Virus record (IMG/VR): IMGVR_UViG_2724679293_000033
Coordinates: 1 to 25,904 of that record
DNA length: 25,904 nucleotides
Strand: one strand, 5' to 3'
From: a virus
Taxonomy: Duplodnaviria > Heunggongvirae > Uroviricota > Caudoviricetes
Below, in pieces: positions 1 through 18,097 of this stretch (the stretch's first letter is position 1; each line of letters opens with the position of its first letter). Both the position numbers and the translations under genes were made by a program. The notes under the pieces are model-generated. The model was not told the DNA's origin. It saw only the letters and a program-made list of their open reading frames with translations, and did no database searches.

Positions 1-1164
1 TTACGCCTTCTTTATATCCTCCATAATTCCAGAGTGGGACATATTTGGGACATTATCACCAAAAATGTCGTCTATTTTCCTCGCATGCTCTGTCAAATGA
101 TTAGGCGCAAGGTGAGCATACCTACGAACCATTTCTATGGACTCCCATCCGCCCATTTCCTGAAGCACTGATAATGGGACGCCTGACTGAATCAGCCAGC
201 TTGCCCAGGTGTGTCTGAGGTCATGGAAACGGAAATCTTCAATTCCTGCACGACGACAAGCTGATAGCCATGATGTCTTGCTGTCGATGCGCATCTTCCT
301 GACCGCAGGCGTTGATGTTCCATCTGCTCGCTTAGCCGCCTTGGTATGTACAAACACCCATTTGTGATGCTTGCCTATTTGATCACGCAACACTTTACAG
401 GCGGTATCGTTCAGCGCCACACCAATGGCGCGGTTTGATTTGCTCTCTTCTGGATTCACCCAGGCAACTCGTCGCTGCATGTCGATTTGTTGCCATTCCA
501 GATTTATGATGTTCGACTTTCTCAGACCAGTTGCCAGCGCAAACTTGACGACAGATTTCAGTGGTTCGGGGCACTCATCAATAAGGCGTTTTGCTTCCTC
601 CTTTTCCAGCCATCTGACTCGCTTGTTTCTGACCGCTGGTATCTTGATGACAGGCGCTTTTTCCAGCCACTTCCAGTCGCGTTCTGCAGCACGGAGAATG
701 GCCTTTATCATGGCAAGATGCTTTGCCTTTGTCTGAGTTGATACTGGCTTTGGTTCATAAACAGGCGGTTCTTTACCTTTCCTGATGGCGGCCTGAACTT
801 TCTGTTTCCATATTTCTTTCGTCTTTCTGTTATGCATTCTGCTTACAGCAGAGTAAATCTTTGCCTCCGAGATATCTTTAAGCCTTATACCCTCAAAATG
901 TTCAAGCCAGAACTCAATCCGGCTTTTATCTGAATCGAGAGATTTTTTATCAGCTTTTTCCTCAAGCCATCTTAGGCAGGCCTCTTCAAAAGTGACATCA
1001 GGTAAATCCCCTAGCTTTTCTACTCGCCAGAGTTCTGCTTTTCGCTTGTCGTGCAACTCCTGAGCTTGCCGCTTGTCCTTTGTGCCAAGAGATTCCTTAA
1101 TTCGTTTCCCGCCCGGGAGCGAATACGAGGCATACCATATTTCATTTCTGCGGAAGAGTGACAT
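1..1164 (-). CDS. int: Tyrosine-type phage integrase (DLP12 IntD-like)
   Basis: 387-aa ORF; C-terminal catalytic region with [11 protein letters not shown] and RRYAHL motifs typical of tyrosine recombinases; recalled near-identity to E. coli DLP12 integrase; sits beside an excisionase-like gene. Confidence 0.95.
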
Positions 1165-3321: not shown

Positions 3322-4103
3322 GCTGCCACCTTCTGCTCAGTGGCTTTCTGTTTCAGGAATCCAAGAGCTTTCACTGCTTCGGCCTGTGTCAGTTCTGACG
3401 ATGCGCGAATGTCGCGGCGAAATATCTGGGAACAGAGCGGCAATAAGTCGTCATCCCATGTTTTATCCAGGGCGATCAGCAGAGTGTTAATCTCCTGCAT
3501 GGTTTCATCGTTAACCGGAGTGATGTCGCGTTCTGGCTGACGTTCTGCAGTGTATGCAGTATTTTCGACAATGCGCTCGGCTTCATCCTTGTCATAGATA
3601 CCAGCAAATCCGAAGGCCAGACGGGCACACTGAATCATGGCTTTATGCCGTAACATCCGTTTGGGATGCGACTGCCACGGCCCCGTGATTTCTCTGCCTT
3701 CGCGGGTTTTGAATGGTTCGCGGCGGCATTCATCCATCCATTCGGTAACGCAGATCGGATGATTACGGTCCTTGCGGTAAATCCGGCATGTACAGGATTC
3801 ATTGTCCTGCTCAAAGTCCATGCCATCAAACTGCTGGTTTTCATTGATGATGCGGGACCAGCCATCAACGCCCACCACCGGAACAATGCCGTTCTGCTTA
3901 TCAGGGAAGGCGTAAATTTCTTTCGTCCACGGATTAAGGCCGTACTGGTTGGCGACGATCAACAATGCGATGAACTGCGCATCGCTGGCATCACCTTTAA
4001 ATGCCGTCTGGCGAAGAGTGGTGATCAGTTCCTGTGGGTCGACAGAATCCATGCCGACACGTTCAGCCAGCTTCCCTGCCAGCGTTGCGAGTGCTGTACT
4101 CAT
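3318..4103 (-). CDS. bet: Single-strand annealing protein Bet (Red-beta)
   Basis: 261-aa [62 protein letters not shown]... matches lambda Bet; ATGA overlap with exo. Confidence 0.97.
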
Positions 4104-4108
4104 CCGTT

Positions 4109-4405
4109 TTATACCTCTGAATCAATATCAACCTGGTGGTGAGCAATGGTTTCAACCATGTACCGGATGTGTTCTGCCATGCGCTCCTGAAACTCAACAT
4201 CGTCATCAAACGCACGGGTAATGGCTTTTTTGCTGGCCCCGTGGCGTTGCAAATGATCGATGCATAGCGATTCAAACAGGTGCTGGGGCAGGCCTTTTTC
4301 CATGTCGTCTGCCAGTTCTGCCTCTTTCTCTTCACGGGCGATCTGCTGGTAGTGACGCGCCCAGCTCTGAGCCTCAAGACGATCCTGAATGTAATAAGCG
4401 TTCAT
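4109..4405 (-). CDS. gam: Gam, RecBCD inhibitor (98-codon form)
   Basis: [39 protein letters not shown]...VDIDSEV matches lambda Gam; the upstream in-frame region reaches a stop 26 codons up with no start, so only the short form is encodable. Confidence 0.9.
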
Positions 4406-4480
4406 GGCTGAACTCCTGAAAATGGCTGTGAAAAAATCGCCCGCGGAATGCCAGGCTGATTCGGAAAACAGGAAAGGGGA

Positions 4481-4771
4481 TTAGTGATTCAGACCGTTGC
4501 CGCGTCCGTCGAGAAAAACTTCCACGAGCAAGTCACGGGTATAAGTGCGCTCAATGCCGCGATGCAGATAAAGTCGTCCGCGTAAATTAGCTGATGCAGT
4601 CCAGGTACCATCTTTGCGTTTGACCAGCATTCCTGGCATGACCGCACCGCGATTAACGGTCTGCGTTCCGTAATGTTGATGAACCATAAAAACTCCTGCC
4701 CGTAAGCTGGGCTGCTGAACATATAAAGACTTCTGCGCGTATTCAGGCGGTGGATGGCCGCCGGTTGTCAT
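4481..4771 (-). CDS. Basic 96-aa protein, first sizeable ORF downstream of the pL region; possibly the C-terminal part of an N-like antiterminator, or a Kil-like protein
   Basis: ORF between the operator-like region and gam; same frame as an upstream 20-codon ORF (4858..4799) encoding arginine-rich MKRTRERRCDQ..., separated by a single TAG. Confidence 0.5.
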   Translation of the reverse strand: MTTGGHPPPEYAQKSLYVQQPSLRAGVFMVHQHYGTQTVNRGAVMPGMLVKRKDGTWTASANLRGRLYLHRGIERTYTRDLLVEVFLDGRGNGLNH

Positions 4772-4974
4772 AACTAAGCCGCCTCGTTGAAGCGACTAAG
4801 GTATGAAATGTTGAGTTGATTTCAGCTGGTCACACCGACGTTCACGCGTCCGTTTCATCCCTCGCACTCCCCGAAGCCTGCTGAAATTCAAGCTGCGGAT
4901 CTAAGCGGTCATCGCAACGGTGAATCAGGTGATTGCCGTATCGTTGTGTTGTTGCGATGAACTCATTTAAAACT

Positions 4975-5045
4975 GTAGTTGTTTTATCGTCAACAACAAA
5001 AGTTGTTTTGTTGGTTGTTTTAGATATAACTGGTTGTATTTAAGA
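4975..5045 (-). promoter_or_regulatory. Candidate oL/pL operator-promoter region
   Basis: Clustered GTTGTT/AACAAC inverted repeats and two TGGTTGT motifs (5012-5018, 5033-5039) that recur in the cI-cro intergenic region; correct position for leftward early promoter. Confidence 0.4.
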
Positions 5046-5137
5046 TGGATTTATTTTGTGACTTGCATCGCATAGCGATAACTGAAGCGAGGTCGTGGTG
5101 GTTTTTTTGAACGGTGTATGATGAGGGGAGGGCAAAA

Positions 5138-5170
5138 GAAAACCCGGCACGGTGGCCGGGTTTAGATGAT
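5138..5170 (-). terminator. Rho-independent terminator ending the cI-side leftward transcript (tImm-like)
   Basis: Perfect 6-bp stem cccggc-acggtg-gccggg at 5143-5160; on the minus-strand transcript followed by UUUUCUUUUG. Confidence 0.6.
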
Positions 5171-5237
5171 TGGTTAAGAGCGAGGGTAATGGGGAATGAA
5201 AAATCGCTTTACCTAATGCAAGGGTGCGAGCATTTTC

Positions 5238-5681
5238 TTAAGCACTAAAGAAAAAGTACATTGATAGCTTATAAAGTCCTGTTCCTGCAGCGATGATTGC
5301 TGGAACACCAAGCAATACCGCAAGCTTTGCGTCTGAAATCTTTCTATCGACAGCATCACTTGATGGCTTGTTTGTTAAGGATTCTTTTATAGAGTCCAGA
5401 CGTGCAAGAATAGTTATCATATTTTTGTCGATAGCTTTAACGTCTGTTTTAAGTTCATCAACGTCTCGTTTGATATGAGCAACATCGGACTCCAGTTTTG
5501 CAACTTTTTCAGGCATGTTATCACTCCCAGACCCACTGCTACCACTTGATTGTAGCATGTCCCATCTTTTTCCAGATATACCTGCTAGCTGGGAAGACGC
5601 ACTGGAGTGCAAACAAAATGATTCTGCCGCCTTTGCAATTTTATCATTTAGGTTTGGAGCTTCGTAATAATCGTGTTTCAT
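5238..5681 (-). CDS. Uncharacterised 147-aa protein with central coiled-coil-like segment and C-terminal hydrophobic helix (predicted membrane anchor)
   Basis: ORF co-oriented with cI; heptad-like EKVAKLESDVAHIKRDVDELKTDVKAIDKNMITILARLDSIKESL followed by LAVLLGVPAIIAAGTGLYKL; AT-rich; no family recognised. Confidence 0.6.
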   Translation of the reverse strand: MKHDYYEAPNLNDKIAKAAESFCLHSSASSQLAGISGKRWDMLQSSGSSGSGSDNMPEKVAKLESDVAHIKRDVDELKTDVKAIDKNMITILARLDSIKESLTNKPSSDAVDRKISDAKLAVLLGVPAIIAAGTGLYKLSMYFFFSA

Positions 5682-5693
5682 AATTAATTACGA

Positions 5694-5957
5694 TTAGTTT
5701 GTTTTAGCTTTGTCATGCTGGTCGCGAATGAAGTCAGCCAATTTAAGCATCAATTCTTCGGGCATTCTAATGGTTGCAATGTTGTACTTTATGTTCTCAA
5801 CATCGTCACTTTCATCAACAGGCCATTCAGTTACATTATGAAAAAAAGAAATTGAACCTAGGCGCTGAGAGCCGTCACCAAACGAAGAGTAGCCAAACGC
5901 GTCGGCGTATGCATCGACACAGTTATTTGATTTTTTAACAAGTGTTTTATTACTCAT
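5694..5957 (-). CDS. Uncharacterised 87-aa acidic protein
   Basis: ORF 12 nt upstream of the 147-aa gene on the same strand, directly downstream of cI; no family recognised. Confidence 0.55.
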   Translation of the reverse strand: MSNKTLVKKSNNCVDAYADAFGYSSFGDGSQRLGSISFFHNVTEWPVDESDDVENIKYNIATIRMPEELMLKLADFIRDQHDKAKTN

Positions 5958-6038
5958 TTTTGCCTTTCCCGTAATGTTATTTTTTATAAGGTATTTTCTT
6001 CAGCGTATTACCCAAAAGCCTCATCAACACGCGGCTGA

Positions 6039-6728
6039 TTATCCGTGTTTTCTGTACGTCTGCGGCATGCTCCCAATAACCTTACCGAATATGAATACCC
6101 GGTTCATCTCGTCTTTCTCGATAGGGTCCCACGGTGAGTAGCTCTTGTTATCAGAGATAACCAGCAGTTTATCCTTCATCATTTGCAGGCGCTTTACATG
6201 GGCGGTGTCGTCGTACAGAAATGCATAGATACCATCACCGTCGAAAGATTTAACCGTGATATCAACGAACAGCAGATCACCTGGTTCGATCGTTCCTGAC
6301 ATGCTGTCACCACGCACGTTAATGATGCGGATATTTTCTGCCTTCCTACCATCGAACATGTGACGAGCATCGTCAAACGAGTACTCAACCGAGCGTAGAA
6401 CTTCTACAAACTCACGGTTGATGACTCCCGGCCCAGCACTGACTTCTATATCAAGAACGTCAATCTTGAAGTATTTGGAATGGCTGACAGTTGATTGTAT
6501 TGGTTGCACTGTACTGTCTGACATATTTCCAACGCCAGAAGATAACCATTCTGCGCGCACACCCAAAGCGTTCGCGATCTCCACGATTTTAGTTGTTTGA
6601 TTAGCTTTCCCTGTTTCGATTTTCTGAATAGCAGCCTGGCTAACCCCGACCAAATCCCCAAGCGCCTTTTGTGTAAGGCCTCGCGCTAATCTGGCTTCTT
6701 TAAGTCTTTCTGAGAGTGTTGTTTTCAT
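6039..6728 (-). CDS. cI: CI-type prophage repressor (HTH_XRE N-domain + LexA/S24-like C-domain)
   Basis: Start at MKTTLSERLKEARLARGLTQKALGDLVGVSQAAIQKIE (helix-turn-helix); C-terminal region with NVRGDSMSGTIEPGDLLFVD and VKRL (Ser/Lys autocleavage dyad context); divergent from cro. Confidence 0.9.
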   Translation of the reverse strand: MKTTLSERLKEARLARGLTQKALGDLVGVSQAAIQKIETGKANQTTKIVEIANALGVRAEWLSSGVGNMSDSTVQPIQSTVSHSKYFKIDVLDIEVSAGPGVINREFVEVLRSVEYSFDDARHMFDGRKAENIRIINVRGDSMSGTIEPGDLLFVDITVKSFDGDGIYAFLYDDTAHVKRLQMMKDKLLVISDNKSYSPWDPIEKDEMNRVFIFGKVIGSMPQTYRKHG

Positions 6729-6832
6729 AGTCCAAATGTACAACCAAGGTTTTATTCCATCAAACGAAAATGGTTGTTGACTAAAAACAACCATGGTTTT
6801 AATCTTGATTCAAATTAACCACGGAGGTTGTT
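6729..6832. promoter_or_regulatory. oR region with divergent pRM (leftward) and pR (rightward)
   Basis: pR: TTGACT (6777-6782), 17-nt spacer, TAATCT (6800-6805). pRM candidate on minus strand: TTGATG-17-TACATT ending ~6 nt before the cI ATG (leaderless-like). TGGTTGT/ACAACCA motifs at 6740-6749, 6771-6779, 6787-6796 plus palindrome AACCATGGTT. Confidence 0.6.
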
Positions 6833-7063
6833 ATGAACCCAGCTATCAAAACAGCGATCAATATCGTTGGTTCACAAAAGAAACTGGGCGCTGCCTGCGA
6901 AGTTTCACAGCAGGCCGTCTATAAGTGGCTTCACAACAAAGCAAAGGTATCCCCTGAACATGTCGGCAGCATTGTTACGGCTACTGGTGGAGTAGTGAAG
7001 GCATACCAGATTCGCCCGGATCTTCCGAAGTTGTTTCCACACACCGAAAAGAACGCAGCTTAA
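6833..7063 (+). CDS. cro: Cro-like HTH repressor
   Basis: 76-aa ORF divergent from cI, preceded by GGAGG; HTH-like segment QKKLGAACEVSQQAVYKWLHNK. Confidence 0.8.
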   Translation: MNPAIKTAINIVGSQKKLGAACEVSQQAVYKWLHNKAKVSPEHVGSIVTATGGVVKAYQIRPDLPKLFPHTEKNAA

Positions 7064-7075
7064 ATTTCCATTTCA

Positions 7076-7087
7076 CGCTCTTTAACA
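7076..7087 (+). promoter_or_regulatory. boxA-like element (candidate nutR)
   Basis: CGCTCTTTAACA just downstream of cro matches the boxA consensus (lambda nut boxA CGCTCTTA; rrn boxA GCTCTTTAACAA); no obvious boxB hairpin found next to it. Confidence 0.4.
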
Positions 7088-7132
7088 ATAAGCAATCAAC
7101 TTAACAGTCAATTCAAACTAAAGGAGTCAATT

Positions 7133-7672
7133 ATGCAACCACTTCCATACCAACAGACTAGCGGATTTAGCCCGACTGCGGTGATAAATCGTTCTCAAAC
7201 AAAACAGGTGCCAGGCCACGAAAAAATCCGTGATGCCGTCCGCGCCTGGTCGGCTGTAGATAATCAGGATGTCGTTGCCACACTCATTGTGAATGAGTAT
7301 CGGGAGCAGGGCGGCGGCACCATCGATTTCCCTGATGATGTCAGCCGTACACGCCAGAAGCTGTTCCGCTTCCTCGATAACAAATTCGATTCTGAAAAAT
7401 ACCGAAATAACGTGCGTGAACTGACCCCGGCAATTCTGGCGGTACTACCGCTGGAATATCGCGGTTACCTGGTTGAGCAGGATAGCTTCATGGCTAGGTT
7501 GGCTGAAATGGAAAAGGAACTCAGTGAGGCAAAACAGGCTGTCATTCTCAACGCACCACGCCACCAGAAACTGAAGGAAATTAGTGAAGGTATTGTGTCG
7601 ATGTTTCGTGTGGACCCAGAGCTGGCTGGTCCATTGATGGCGATGGTTACTACCATGCTGGGGGCGATATGA
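7133..7672 (+). CDS. CII-like/early regulatory protein (179 aa), family uncertain
   Basis: ORF with AAGGAG RBS in the cII position between cro and O; no confident motif match. Confidence 0.5.
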   Translation: MQPLPYQQTSGFSPTAVINRSQTKQVPGHEKIRDAVRAWSAVDNQDVVATLIVNEYREQGGGTIDFPDDVSRTRQKLFRFLDNKFDSEKYRNNVRELTPAILAVLPLEYRGYLVEQDSFMARLAEMEKELSEAKQAVILNAPRHQKLKEISEGIVSMFRVDPELAGPLMAMVTTMLGAI

Positions 7673-17444: not shown

Positions 17445-17738
17445 TTATTGTGAGCAATACACACGCGCTTCCAGCGGAGTATAAATGCCTAAAGTAATAA
17501 AACCGAGCAATCCATTTACGAATGTTTGCTGGGTTTCTGTTTTAACAACATTTTCTGCGCCGCCACAAATTTTGGCTGCATCAACAGTTTTCTCCTGTCC
17601 AATTCCCGAAACGAAGAAGTGATGGGTGATGGTTTCCTTTGGTGTTACTGCTGTCGGTTTGTTTCCAACAGTAAACGTCTGTTGAGCACATCCTGTAATA
17701 AGCATTGCCAGAGCGGCAGAAAACAACATTTTTTTCAT
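17445..17738 (-). CDS. bor: Bor lipoprotein (serum-resistance lysogenic-conversion protein)
   Basis: MKKMLFSAALAMLITGCAQQTFTVGNKPTAV... with lipobox LITGC; matches lambda Bor; opposite strand to the lysis genes. Confidence 0.85.
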   Translation of the reverse strand: MKKMLFSAALAMLITGCAQQTFTVGNKPTAVTPKETITHHFFVSGIGQEKTVDAAKICGGAENVVKTETQQTFVNGLLGFITLGIYTPLEARVYCSQ

Positions 17739-18097
17739 CTTATTATCCTGCATTGTTAAAAACGGCAGAATCCTATGTGACAACAATTAAACGATAGTTA
17801 AATGGATTGATGAAAATTAAAACTATATAGGTGGATGCTCAGCCTATTGGAGGAGGGGGGCACTCAGAATCCTGTGGAATGAAATAAACCGCTCTATCTG
17901 TCCATTACCCTTTTAGCTGCGCTGTATCGTCGCCGTATTCCCGCATTAACCATGACCGTAGCCCGACGGGGAATTCCTTCTGCGTGAGTGTGCGGGAATA
18001 ATCAAAAACGATGCACACCGGGTTTTACTGTGCTGACAGACGCAGGGTTACCCTCATAGTCGCTTTTCCGGTGCGATGGTGGAAGAAACCGGGATGT

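What the first reader, a model, noticed from the sequence alone, without database searches (positions are those of the whole stretch)
4771..4858. Arginine-rich N-like start separated from the downstream ORF by one in-frame amber codon
Seen: on the minus strand, a 20-codon ORF with a GGGGAG RBS starts at 4858 and encodes MKRTRERRCDQLKSTQHFIP, then TAG (4798-4796); in the same frame, 8 codons later, the 96-aa basic ORF begins (4771). Established: N antiterminators carry an N-terminal arginine-rich RNA-binding motif (lambda N MDAQTRRRERRAEKQ) and N is the first gene after pL/nutL; a boxA-like element is present on the right side (7076-7087). Inference: either the prophage N gene is inactivated by a nonsense mutation (defective or suppressor-dependent antitermination), or the gene uses readthrough/reinitiation, or the short peptide is coincidental and the 96-aa protein is an unrelated early protein.
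Basis: partly seen in the sequence, partly recalled or inferred. Interest (0 to 1): 0.55.

Follow-up and report, generated by a model that had tools for sequence, protein, structure and literature searches.

The report
Chance ORF in prophage kil leader
The supposed "amber-interrupted N antiterminator gene" is most likely a chance short reading frame in the untranslated leader that precedes the cell-division-inhibitor gene kil of a very common N-less lambda-like prophage, and its stop codon is a harmless natural C/T variant beside a conserved RNA hairpin.

Summary
The sequence is exactly as described: ATG 4858, 20 codons MKRTRERRCDQLKSTQHFIP, TAG 4798-4796, then an in-frame ATG at 4771. The N interpretation fails.

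- **The downstream ORF is Kil, not N.** Its last 68 residues are the FtsZ inhibitor Kil. Homologues and RefSeq start kil at ATG 4687, behind a strong AGGAG.
- **No N homology.** The merged frame hits no N family in Pfam or PHROGs and shows no similarity to lambda N. No protein with this N-terminus exists beyond a 31-aa gene call.
- **No nut or put sites.** There is no boxB, no boxA on the left, and no put RNA.
- **The ORF's signals are polymorphic.** Among 88 natural haplotypes of this leader (found in 2238 of 5426 complete E. coli genomes), the start is GTG in 74 and the "amber" is CAG in 52. Indels break the frame in several.
- **The T of TAG lies outside any constrained codon.** It is the unpaired base just 5' of a 9-bp hairpin with strong covariation. 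The hairpin belongs to a conserved leader cassette that in other Enterobacteriaceae prophages follows an intrinsic terminator and no arginine-rich ORF.

Verdict: an ordinary pL leader plus kil. The conserved cassette is the only part worth further study.

The parts
4965..4993 (-). Putative pL promoter: -35 TTGACG (4993-4988), 17-nt spacer, -10 TTAAAT (4970-4965). The inferred transcription start is about 4958. The promoter is embedded in operator repeats (CAACAAAA...TTTTGTTG) that recur at oR (6762-6802).
   Evidence: Sequence and inverted operator repeats I1/I3/I7. In 4A7 a different promoter (TTGATA-17-TATTAT) ends at the same place, and conservation starts exactly at TCGCAAC. This is an inference: the consensus scan did not list the promoter because its -10 lacks A at position 2.
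4688..4958 (-). 5' leader of the early-left (pL) transcript, about 270 nt. It is 96-100% identical in relatives that carry different immunity regions.
   Evidence: Present in 2238 of 5426 complete E. coli genomes. RefSeq annotates no gene over 4806-4956 in any of the 40 genomes sampled. No Rfam family matches.
4796..4858 (-). The 20-codon arginine-rich ORF plus its stop codon. Judged incidental.
   Evidence: Start is GTG in 74 of 88 haplotypes, with M1R, R3W, R5C, S14L, Q16R, H17Y and F18L variants also seen. Only a 31-aa gene call matches it among 5.8 billion proteins. tblastn finds residues 1-17 only in 16 near-identical phages.
4796..4798 (-). The 'amber' codon. T4798 is the unpaired base immediately 5' of the hairpin, and A4797 and G4796 are the first two paired bases of the stem.
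   Evidence: C in 52 and T in 36 of 88 haplotypes. The base is C in most other genera, G in phi80 and A in KO-TP1. Folds.
4777..4797 (-). Conserved 9-bp hairpin AGUCGCUUC-AAC-GAGGCGGCU, preceded by the invariant CATACC (4805-4800).
   Evidence: At least 10 independent stem versions all fold in the same place. 98.1% of cells are paired against 84.9 +/- 1.4 in shuffles (0 of 500 reach it), 22 cells carry double changes, and slid controls give 30-52%.
4748..4774 (-). Near-invariant 27-mer GTTATGACAACCGGCGGCCATCCACCG. It contains ATG 4771, the start of a small upstream ORF (MTTGGHPP...) that in this lineage is fused in frame to kil, producing the apparent 96-aa ORF.
   Evidence: Identical in E. 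coli, Klebsiella, Enterobacter, Citrobacter, Scandinavium and Huaxiibacter prophages. The ORF continuation differs in length and frame between lineages.
4481..4687 (-). kil, encoding a 68-aa FtsZ/cell-division inhibitor. The true start is ATG 4687, behind AGGAG (4697-4693).
   Evidence: PHROG_294 E = 1e-37. NCBIfam PRK11354 aligns residues 29-96 of the 96-aa ORF to positions 1-70 of 73. Annotated as 68 aa in RefSeq WP_000233582, 4A7 and HK225. Coding signature: diversity at codon positions 1/2/3 = 0.001/0.010/0.055.
4883..4897 (-). Motif A, CGCAGCTTGAATTTC. It recurs as CGCAGCTTAAATTTC at 7054-7068 (+) in the pR transcript.
   Evidence: I5. Chained alignment of the leader against the pR transcript scores 33.5 against 17.9 +/- 2.8, reached by 0 of 1000 shuffles.
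4809..4821 (-). Motif B, AATCAACTCAACA. It recurs as AATCAACTTAACA at 7094-7106 (+).
   Evidence: (I6).
7076..7088 (+). Perfect rrn-type boxA, CGCTCTTTAACAA, between cro and the cII-like gene. Motifs A and B flank it, and no boxB hairpin follows.
   Evidence: Present only with the window-type immunity region and absent from relatives such as 4A7 that keep the same left leader.

Best explanation
The flagged stretch is part of the roughly 270-nt 5' leader of the early-left (pL) transcript of an N-less lambda-like prophage (relatives: the Bievrevirus phages 4A7 and 4C10, plus IdasGreatGrand and the PhiR phages). The first real gene after pL is kil, a 68-aa FtsZ inhibitor that starts at ATG 4687, followed by gam, bet and exo. 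The arginine-rich 20-codon frame is an incidental ORF in a G/C-rich part of the leader. The 'amber' is a neutral C-to-T polymorphism at the unpaired base just 5' of a conserved, covarying RNA hairpin. That hairpin, the near-invariant 27-mer after it (which holds ATG 4771) and a small variable upstream ORF form a leader cassette. In other Enterobacteriaceae prophages this cassette sits directly after an intrinsic terminator and ahead of various delayed-early genes. In this lineage the cassette is joined directly to the promoter-proximal leader, and its small ORF happens to run in frame into kil, which creates the illusion of a 96-aa protein and of a longer interrupted gene. Shown here: the identities, the polymorphism frequencies, the hairpin covariation, and the absence of N, nut and put features. 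Inferred: that the leader is untranslated or only incidentally translated, and that its role is to set the level of toxic Kil expression, for example by sequestering the GAG(G) Shine-Dalgarno-like sequence in the hairpin and by exposing C-rich, G-poor stretches to Rho. Rho silences kilR in the Rac prophage (my own knowledge: Cardinale et al. 2008).
For: Kil identity and true start. Gene order pL, leader, kil, gam, bet, exo, with no N gene in the window or in fully annotated relatives (only a Q-like protein). No N homology: Pfam 0 hits for the merged 125-aa frame, PHROGs 0 hits, tblastn against 50,697 phage records finds the arginine-rich part only in 16 near-identical phages, 5.8 billion proteins give only a 31-aa call, BLASTP against lambda N gives E = 6.2 away from the arginine-rich motif. 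Polymorphism: GTG 74 / ATG 14 and CAG 52 / TAG 36 of 88 haplotypes; ATG occurs only with TAG; several haplotypes carry frame-breaking indels (5-nt duplication, 1-nt deletions) while the 68-aa kil stays intact. T4798 is unpaired beside a hairpin with strong covariation. The same cassette follows a terminator, with no arginine-rich ORF, in about 98 of 106 non-window-type copies. The leader's nucleotides are conserved across different immunity regions from the transcription start onward. RefSeq annotates nothing in the leader.
Against: The arginine-rich ORF has a plausible Shine-Dalgarno sequence (GGGGAG, 8-nt spacing) and sits where N would sit. Its R-T-R-E-R-R core aligns without gaps to lambda N residues 6-11 (RRRERR). 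Its four common third-position polymorphisms are all synonymous, set against two common non-synonymous ones; the numbers are too small to be significant (P about 0.1). The leader shares two colinear motifs with the boxA-containing spacer after cro, which looks like a nutL/nutR pair. No expression data were available, so translation of the ORF cannot be excluded. The regulatory role proposed for the leader is inference only, and whole-leader folding is not unusually stable (z = -0.59).
Confidence: 0.8

Rival explanations
1. N-gene stump. An ancestor had pL, nutL, N, tL1, the cassette and then kil. A deletion from within codon ~17 of N to the U-run of tL1 removed N and its terminator together, leaving the arginine-rich first codons as a non-functional vestige.
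For: The homology break with other phages lies exactly at the T-run/CATACC junction where they carry an intrinsic terminator. In phi80, ENT1 and KO-TP1 the cassette follows the first gene of the pL operon, which is the N-tL1 position. N proteins carry their arginine-rich motif at the extreme N-terminus (established knowledge), and RTRERR resembles lambda N RRRERR. Motifs shared with a boxA-bearing spacer after cro.
Against: No intact gene with a related N-terminus was found in 50,697 phage records, 5426 E. coli genomes or 5.8 billion proteins. There is no boxA or boxB between the transcription start and the ORF. The first pL genes of phi80 and ENT1 have no arginine-rich motif. GTG is the majority and probably ancestral start.
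Confidence: 0.1
2. Regulatory upstream ORF. The short frame, and/or the ATG-4771 frame, is translated on purpose. It would either shield the long leader from Rho or tune kil translation, giving Kil isoforms of 125, 96 and 68 aa depending on the allele. The peptide sequence itself would be irrelevant.
For: A plausible Shine-Dalgarno sequence upstream of 4858. The ATG of the cassette ORF is kept in all ~10 variants of the 12 nt before the core. The frame is open into kil in about half of the haplotypes. The MTTGGHPPP motif contains a polyproline stretch of the kind that stalls ribosomes (established knowledge).
Against: Alleles with TAG, with CAG and with frameshifts all circulate widely, so no single configuration is required. 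The conserved nucleotides downstream of the 27-mer are read in different frames in different lineages. The cassette's GAG(G) lies inside the hairpin and 10 nt from the ATG, which is a poor initiation context.
Confidence: 0.1
3. One reading: a functional-type N gene inactivated by, or dependent on suppression or readthrough of, an amber codon.
For: Position after pL, an arginine-rich start, the in-frame layout, and a boxA on the right.
Against: The part after the stop is a non-coding cassette plus Kil. The CAG allele would give an arginine-rich-linker-Kil fusion, not an N protein. There is no N homology, no boxB and no left boxA. The state of the ORF is uncoupled from the presence of the right-hand boxA.
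Confidence: 0.01

Closest known systems
Lambda N / nutL (first gene and RNA site downstream of pL in lambda, P22 and phage 21)
   Same: Position immediately downstream of pL. A short arginine-rich stretch (RTRERR against lambda RRRERR). A boxA in the equivalent of the nutR position after cro.
   Different: No detectable N homology, no boxB hairpin and no boxA on the left. Only 20 codons, with GTG in most alleles. The sequence after the stop is a non-coding cassette plus Kil. The right-hand boxA is absent from many relatives that keep the same leader.
Kil / KilR FtsZ inhibitors of lambdoid prophages (Rac KilR, NCBIfam PRK11354; PHROG_294)
   Same: The C-terminal 68 residues of the 96-aa ORF are a clear homologue, located directly upstream of gam-bet-exo as in many lambdoid phages. 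kilR of Rac is known to be kept silent by Rho (my own knowledge), which matches a long untranslated leader here.
   Different: Here kil is the first gene of the pL operon, with no N, cIII or terminator in front of it. It scores below the NCBIfam subfamily cut-off (57.6 against 92 bits), so it is a diverged member.
HK022 / HK639 put antiterminator RNAs
   Same: N-less lambdoid phages with a conserved RNA-level element that starts right at the pL transcript. The first ~25 nt of the transcript resemble those of HK639 and phi80.
   Different: The put core (GAACGGCGCG...TAAACCATGCGTCGG...CGGCAAT) and its two-stem architecture are absent. The promoter-proximal hairpin is not kept in all variants.
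Short conserved 'linker' sequences at module boundaries of lambdoid phage genomes (my own knowledge: HK97/HK022 and HK620 genome papers)
   Same: A short, nearly invariant sequence at a gene boundary in the early-left operon, flanked by different genes in different phages.
   Different: This one includes a hairpin with compensatory changes and a fixed position after a terminator, which suggests RNA-level function rather than only a recombination joint.

Membership tests
Lambda-type N antiterminator proteins | Detectable sequence homology to N proteins (family profiles or pairwise) | tested here: not met
   Pfam: 0 families for the merged 125-aa frame. PHROGs: 0 for the 20-mer and only Kil for the 96-mer. 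tblastn at E <= 10 hits no N genes. BLASTP against lambda N gives E = 6.2 outside the arginine-rich motif.
Lambda-type N antiterminator proteins | N-terminal arginine-rich motif able to bind a boxB hairpin | tested here: inconclusive
   RTRERR aligns without gaps to lambda N 6-11, but equivalents of lambda Ala3, Thr5 and Trp18 are missing. 23 arginine-rich 8-mers occur in six-frame translation of the window. R3W and R5C variants exist. RNA binding is not testable here.
Lambda-type N antiterminator proteins | About 100-aa protein with C-terminal NusA- and RNA-polymerase-binding regions | tested here: not met
   The ORF ends after 20 codons. The read-through product would be cassette-derived linker plus Kil.
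Lambda-type N antiterminator proteins | Paired nut sites (boxA + boxB) early in both the pL and pR transcripts | tested here: not met
   The only boxA is at 7076-7088, with no hairpin after it. There is none in the pL leader. The shared motifs A and B are not hairpins, and the right-hand copies are missing in boxA-negative relatives.
Lambda-type N antiterminator proteins | First ORF downstream of pL | tested here: met
   ATG 4858 lies about 100 nt after the inferred transcription start. The promoter itself is inferred.
Kil / KilR FtsZ-inhibitor family | Profile homology over the whole ~70-aa protein | tested here: met
   PHROG_294 E = 1.5e-36 for residues 1-68 of the 68-aa form. NCBIfam PRK11354 E = 3.7e-16 over positions 1-70 of 73, though below the curated subfamily cut-off.
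Kil / KilR FtsZ-inhibitor family | Location in the early-left operon next to gam/bet/exo, or recET | tested here: met
   kil 4687-4481, gam 4405-4109, bet 4103-3318, exo 3321-2641. The same order holds in relatives.
Kil / KilR FtsZ-inhibitor family | Blocks cell division through FtsZ | not testable with these tools
   Needs expression in cells.
HK022-type put antiterminator RNA | Conserved put core sequence and two-stem-loop fold just downstream of the early promoters | tested here: not met
   Alignment with HK022 putL and the annotated HK639 putL-like RNA shows that their shared core is absent from the window leader. Folds.
Any curated RNA family (Rfam 15) | Covariance-model match | tested here: not met
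   Only a spurious miRNA hit at E = 0.087 elsewhere in 4000-7600.

The most novel reading that the evidence does not exclude
The 20-residue arginine-rich peptide (or its Kil-fused form in CAG alleles) is a minimal, free-standing N-like RNA-binding peptide. It would act on the two motifs that the pL leader shares with the boxA-containing spacer after cro. That would make this very common prophage family a carrier of a stripped-down, previously unseen form of Nus-dependent early antitermination. A less radical, more likely novelty is that the hairpin + 27-mer cassette holding the 'amber' is an undescribed cis-regulatory leader RNA of delayed-early genes such as the toxic kil. I would put that at about 0.35 probability and 0.45 interest.
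Probability: 0.03. Interest if true: 0.8.

Novelty: not a real feature. Interest (0 to 1): 0.14.

Why it matters
It prevents a mis-annotation: there is no pseudo-N gene and no suppressor-dependent antitermination here, and kil is 68 aa rather than 96 aa. It also documents that a prophage family present in about 41% of complete E. coli genomes has neither an N-type protein nor a put-type RNA after pL, and places the toxic kil gene first behind a long conserved leader. The one element that deserves follow-up is the covarying hairpin and invariant 27-mer cassette. It is shared by prophages of at least six enterobacterial genera and is absent from Rfam.

Tried and rejected
- **put-type RNA.** I fetched HK022 putL and the annotated HK639 putL-like RNA. 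Their common core is absent from the leader.
- **Rfam.** A scan of 4000-7600 found nothing.
- **N remnant.** The 40-aa query returned only a 31-aa gene call. A distant blastn of the promoter-proximal 151 nt against E. coli genomes returned only near-identical copies and one IS3-interrupted copy.
- **nut-like pair.** The motifs shared with the cro-cII spacer are statistically real. However, the right-hand copies and the boxA occur only with one immunity type and do not track the ATG/GTG or TAG/CAG state, so I did not adopt a two-site antitermination model.
- **mEpimmI/Gp17 N-like system.** This belongs to a different phage group.
- **Coding test by codon-position diversity.** It is clear for kil and gam, underpowered for the 20-codon ORF, and confounded by a synonymous first-position Leu change in 4771-4688.
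- **Whole-leader folding.** Not unusually stable, z = -0.59.
- **Promoter or ops-like reading of the 27-mer.** Rejected by inspection. A second copy or antisense partner of the 27-mer in the window was not found.
- **Literal sequence search of papers** for the 27-mer core: no hits.
- **boxA-like GCTCTTAACCAA at 5181-5170**, just before the terminator 5163-5140: not conserved in relatives, so probably chance.

Full report
**Observation.** Reading the minus strand confirms every coordinate. GGGGAG lies at 4872-4867 and ATG at 4858. Twenty codons encode MKRTRERRCDQLKSTQHFIP, followed by TAG at 4798-4796, eight sense codons, and ATG 4771 opening a 96-aa ORF that ends at 4481. The element at 7076-7088 is a perfect rrn-type boxA, CGCTCTTTAACAA. 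The TAG is genuine. Three complete E. coli genomes are 100% identical over 4680-4960, and TAG is found in 36 of 88 distinct natural haplotypes.

**Context.** The window is a lambda-like prophage:
- int, xis, exo (3321-2641), bet (4103-3318), gam (4405-4109), then the ORF in question;
- an operator-rich promoter region;
- two genes of unknown function, then a cI-like repressor (6794-6039);
- cro (6833-7063), a cII-like/YdaT-domain gene (7133-7672), replication genes, NinB, RusA;
- a Q-like antiterminator (13985-14383), a porin, lysis genes, terminase and head genes.

The putative pL promoter is TTGACG-17 nt-TTAAAT (4993-4965), with a start near 4958. This is an inference. It is supported by the fact that phage 4A7, which has different operators and a different promoter (TTGATA-17-TATTAT), becomes nearly identical to the window exactly from TCGCAAC onward.

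**What the 96-aa ORF is.** PHROG_294, "Kil protein for bacterial septation inhibition", matches at E = 1e-37. NCBIfam PRK11354 (FtsZ inhibitor KilR) aligns residues 29-96 to model positions 1-70 of 73. Kil is annotated as 68 aa in RefSeq E. coli genomes (WP_000233582), in phage 4A7 and in HK225. In the window that start is ATG 4687, 5 nt after AGGAG. Natural diversity gives kil a textbook coding signature, with diversity at codon positions 1/2/3 of 0.001/0.010/0.055. The 28 residues upstream are therefore not part of the conserved protein.

**No N here.**
- The merged 125-aa frame has no Pfam hit, and the 20-mer has no PHROG hit.
- tblastn of the 57-residue extension against 50,697 phage records at E <= 10 finds residues 1-17 only in 16 near-identical phages. 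No N gene is hit.
- A search of 5.8 billion proteins returns a single 31-aa gene call, MNFSRLRGVRGMKRTRERRCDQLKSTQHFIP.
- BLASTP against lambda N gives E = 6.2, away from the arginine-rich motif.
- A fully annotated relative and the rest of the window contain only a Q-type antiterminator.
- The pL leader has no boxA, and neither early transcript has a boxB-like hairpin next to a boxA.
- The alternative used by N-less lambdoid phages, put RNA, is also absent. HK022 putL and the annotated HK639 putL-like RNA share a clear core that the window lacks.
- Arginine-rich stretches are common in off-frame translation of this DNA, with 23 in the window.

**Population evidence.** The leader occurs in 2238 of 5426 complete E. 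coli genomes, and RefSeq annotates nothing in its promoter-proximal 151 nt. Results from about 120 viral contigs, which give 84-88 distinct haplotypes:
- The start codon is GTG in 74, ATG in 14, and non-start in one or two.
- The "amber" is CAG in 52 and TAG in 36.
- ATG is seen only together with TAG, so the window represents a minority sub-lineage.
- Replacements R3W, R5C, S14L, Q16R, H17Y and F18L occur.
- Several haplotypes carry a 5-nt duplication or 1-nt deletions that break the long frames while leaving the 68-aa kil intact.

The 20-codon ORF has four synonymous and seven non-synonymous polymorphic sites. That is too few to decide, but it gives no positive evidence of protein-level constraint.

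**What the amber codon sits in.** A 60-100-nt piece of the leader (about 4808-4706) is also found in HK225, phi80, Klebsiella phage KO-TP1 and Enterobacter phages. It also occurs in Citrobacter, Enterobacter, Scandinavium and Huaxiibacter genomes.
- There it follows the stop codon and intrinsic terminator of an upstream gene. About 98 of 106 non-window-type copies have a hairpin plus T-run immediately before CATACC. It precedes different genes in different phages.
- It consists of CATACC, a 9-bp hairpin, a nearly invariant 27-mer GTTATGACAACCGGCGGCCATCCACCG, and a variable tail.
- The hairpin exists in at least ten independent stem versions that all fold in place. On a gap-free alignment of 24 variants, 98.1% of cells pair, against 84.9 +/- 1.4 in shuffles (0 of 500). 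Twenty-two cells show changes on both sides, and slid controls give 30-52%.
- T4798 is the unpaired base just 5' of this stem, and A4797 and G4796 are its first two paired bases. The base is C in most other genera, G in phi80 and A in KO-TP1. C is therefore ancestral, and TAG is a derived, apparently neutral transition.
- The ATG at 4771 belongs to a small ORF (MTTGGHPP...) whose continuation differs in length and frame between lineages. The conserved nucleotides GCGCAGAAGTCTT are read in different frames, so the constraint is on nucleotides. In the window lineage this ORF happens to run into kil.

**How it probably works.** Shown: the leader is a conserved transcribed element that begins at the transcription start and ends at a strong kil ribosome-binding site, and it contains a selected RNA hairpin. 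Inferred: it is a regulatory 5' UTR for a toxic gene. The hairpin sequesters the conserved GAG(G). The first ~50 nt and the region around +125 to +160 are C-rich and G-poor, as Rho-loading sites are. kilR of Rac is known to be silenced by Rho (my own knowledge). I did not find evidence that the leader as a whole is unusually structured (z = -0.59).

**An unexplained resemblance.** The leader and the spacer after cro share, in the same transcriptional orientation, CGCAGCTT(G/A)AATTTC and AATCAACT(C/T)AACA. On the right these flank the boxA. A chained alignment scores 33.5 against 17.9 +/- 2.8, reached by 0 of 1000 shuffles. This looks like nutL/nutR. However, the right-hand copies and the boxA occur only with the window-type immunity region, and their presence is independent of the ATG/GTG and TAG/CAG states. 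I therefore treat it as a relic of recombination or an optional element, and I keep a small probability for an N-stump or a minimal-N reading.

**Verdict.** The feature is an incidental ORF and a neutral polymorphism in the leader of kil. Interest is low. The conserved leader cassette is the only item that merits further work.

Noticed in passing
window 4805-4748 (-); also L003 2495-2563, L004 2995-3059, L005 3001-3100, L006 3001-3078, L128-L143, L159-L278: A conserved leader cassette: (intrinsic terminator), CATACC, a covarying 9-bp hairpin, the near-invariant 27-mer GTTATGACAACCGGCGGCCATCCACCG with a small ORF MTTGGHPP..., and a further small hairpin before the next gene's ribosome-binding site. 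It occurs in prophages of at least six enterobacterial genera, once per prophage, ahead of different genes. It is not in Rfam, and its function is unknown.
   Followed up: partly
window 7054-7106 (+) and 4897-4809 (-): A perfect rrn-type boxA (7076-7088) after cro, with no boxB. It is flanked by two motifs that recur in the pL leader in the same transcriptional orientation, so the pair looks like nutL/nutR. The right-hand set occurs only with this immunity type. It may give Nus-factor (boxA-only) protection of the pR transcript.
   Followed up: partly
window 4958-4935 (-); L279 ~34380-34355 (-); L004 ~2275-2300: The first ~25 nt of the pL transcript (CATCG, an A/C-rich loop, CGAT(A)) resemble those of HK639, phi80 and Enterobacter phage ENT1, although the promoters and downstream leaders differ. 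It may be a 5'-terminal stem-loop. Some variants (L023, L121) replace its left arm.
   Followed up: partly
window 5694-5957 (-) and 5238-5681 (-): Two genes of unknown function occupy the rexA/rexB position between cI and pL. The second is a coiled-coil protein with a C-terminal hydrophobic segment (PHROG_3556). Neither hits PADLOC. Relatives carry different genes at this position (an ASCH-domain protein in 4A7), as expected for a lysogen-expressed accessory-gene slot that may mediate exclusion or defence.
   Followed up: partly
window 11492-11908 (+) and 11887-12288 (+): An overlapping gene pair in the nin region. The first weakly matches the PADLOC candidate defence protein PDC-M28A (E = 1.8e-7). 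This may be a toxin-antitoxin or defence gene pair.
   Followed up: partly
window 14572-15654 (-): An OmpC/NmpC-like porin gene lies on the opposite strand just downstream of the Q-like antiterminator gene. A Bor-like lipoprotein gene lies at 17445-17786 (-).
   Followed up: no
L158 2607-4080 (E. coli Res13-Lact-PEA14-20): In one genome an IS3-family element is inserted in the leader just after the first codons of the arginine-rich ORF, separating pL from kil.
   Followed up: yes
window 5181-5140 (-): A lambda-like boxA string (CGCTCTTAACC) lies directly before the strong intrinsic terminator that ends the cI operon. It is not conserved in IdasGreatGrand or 4A7, so it is probably chance.
   Followed up: yes
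window 7133-7672 (+): The gene in the cII position matches both PHROG_163 (CII-like activator) and Pfam YdaT_toxin. RefSeq calls it a toxin YdaT domain-containing protein.
   Followed up: no
L002 ~440-468 (-) and L005 ~1136-1153 (-): Relatives without the boxA carry instead a small hairpin, GCCGC-loop-GCGGC, between cro and the cII-like gene.
   Followed up: no
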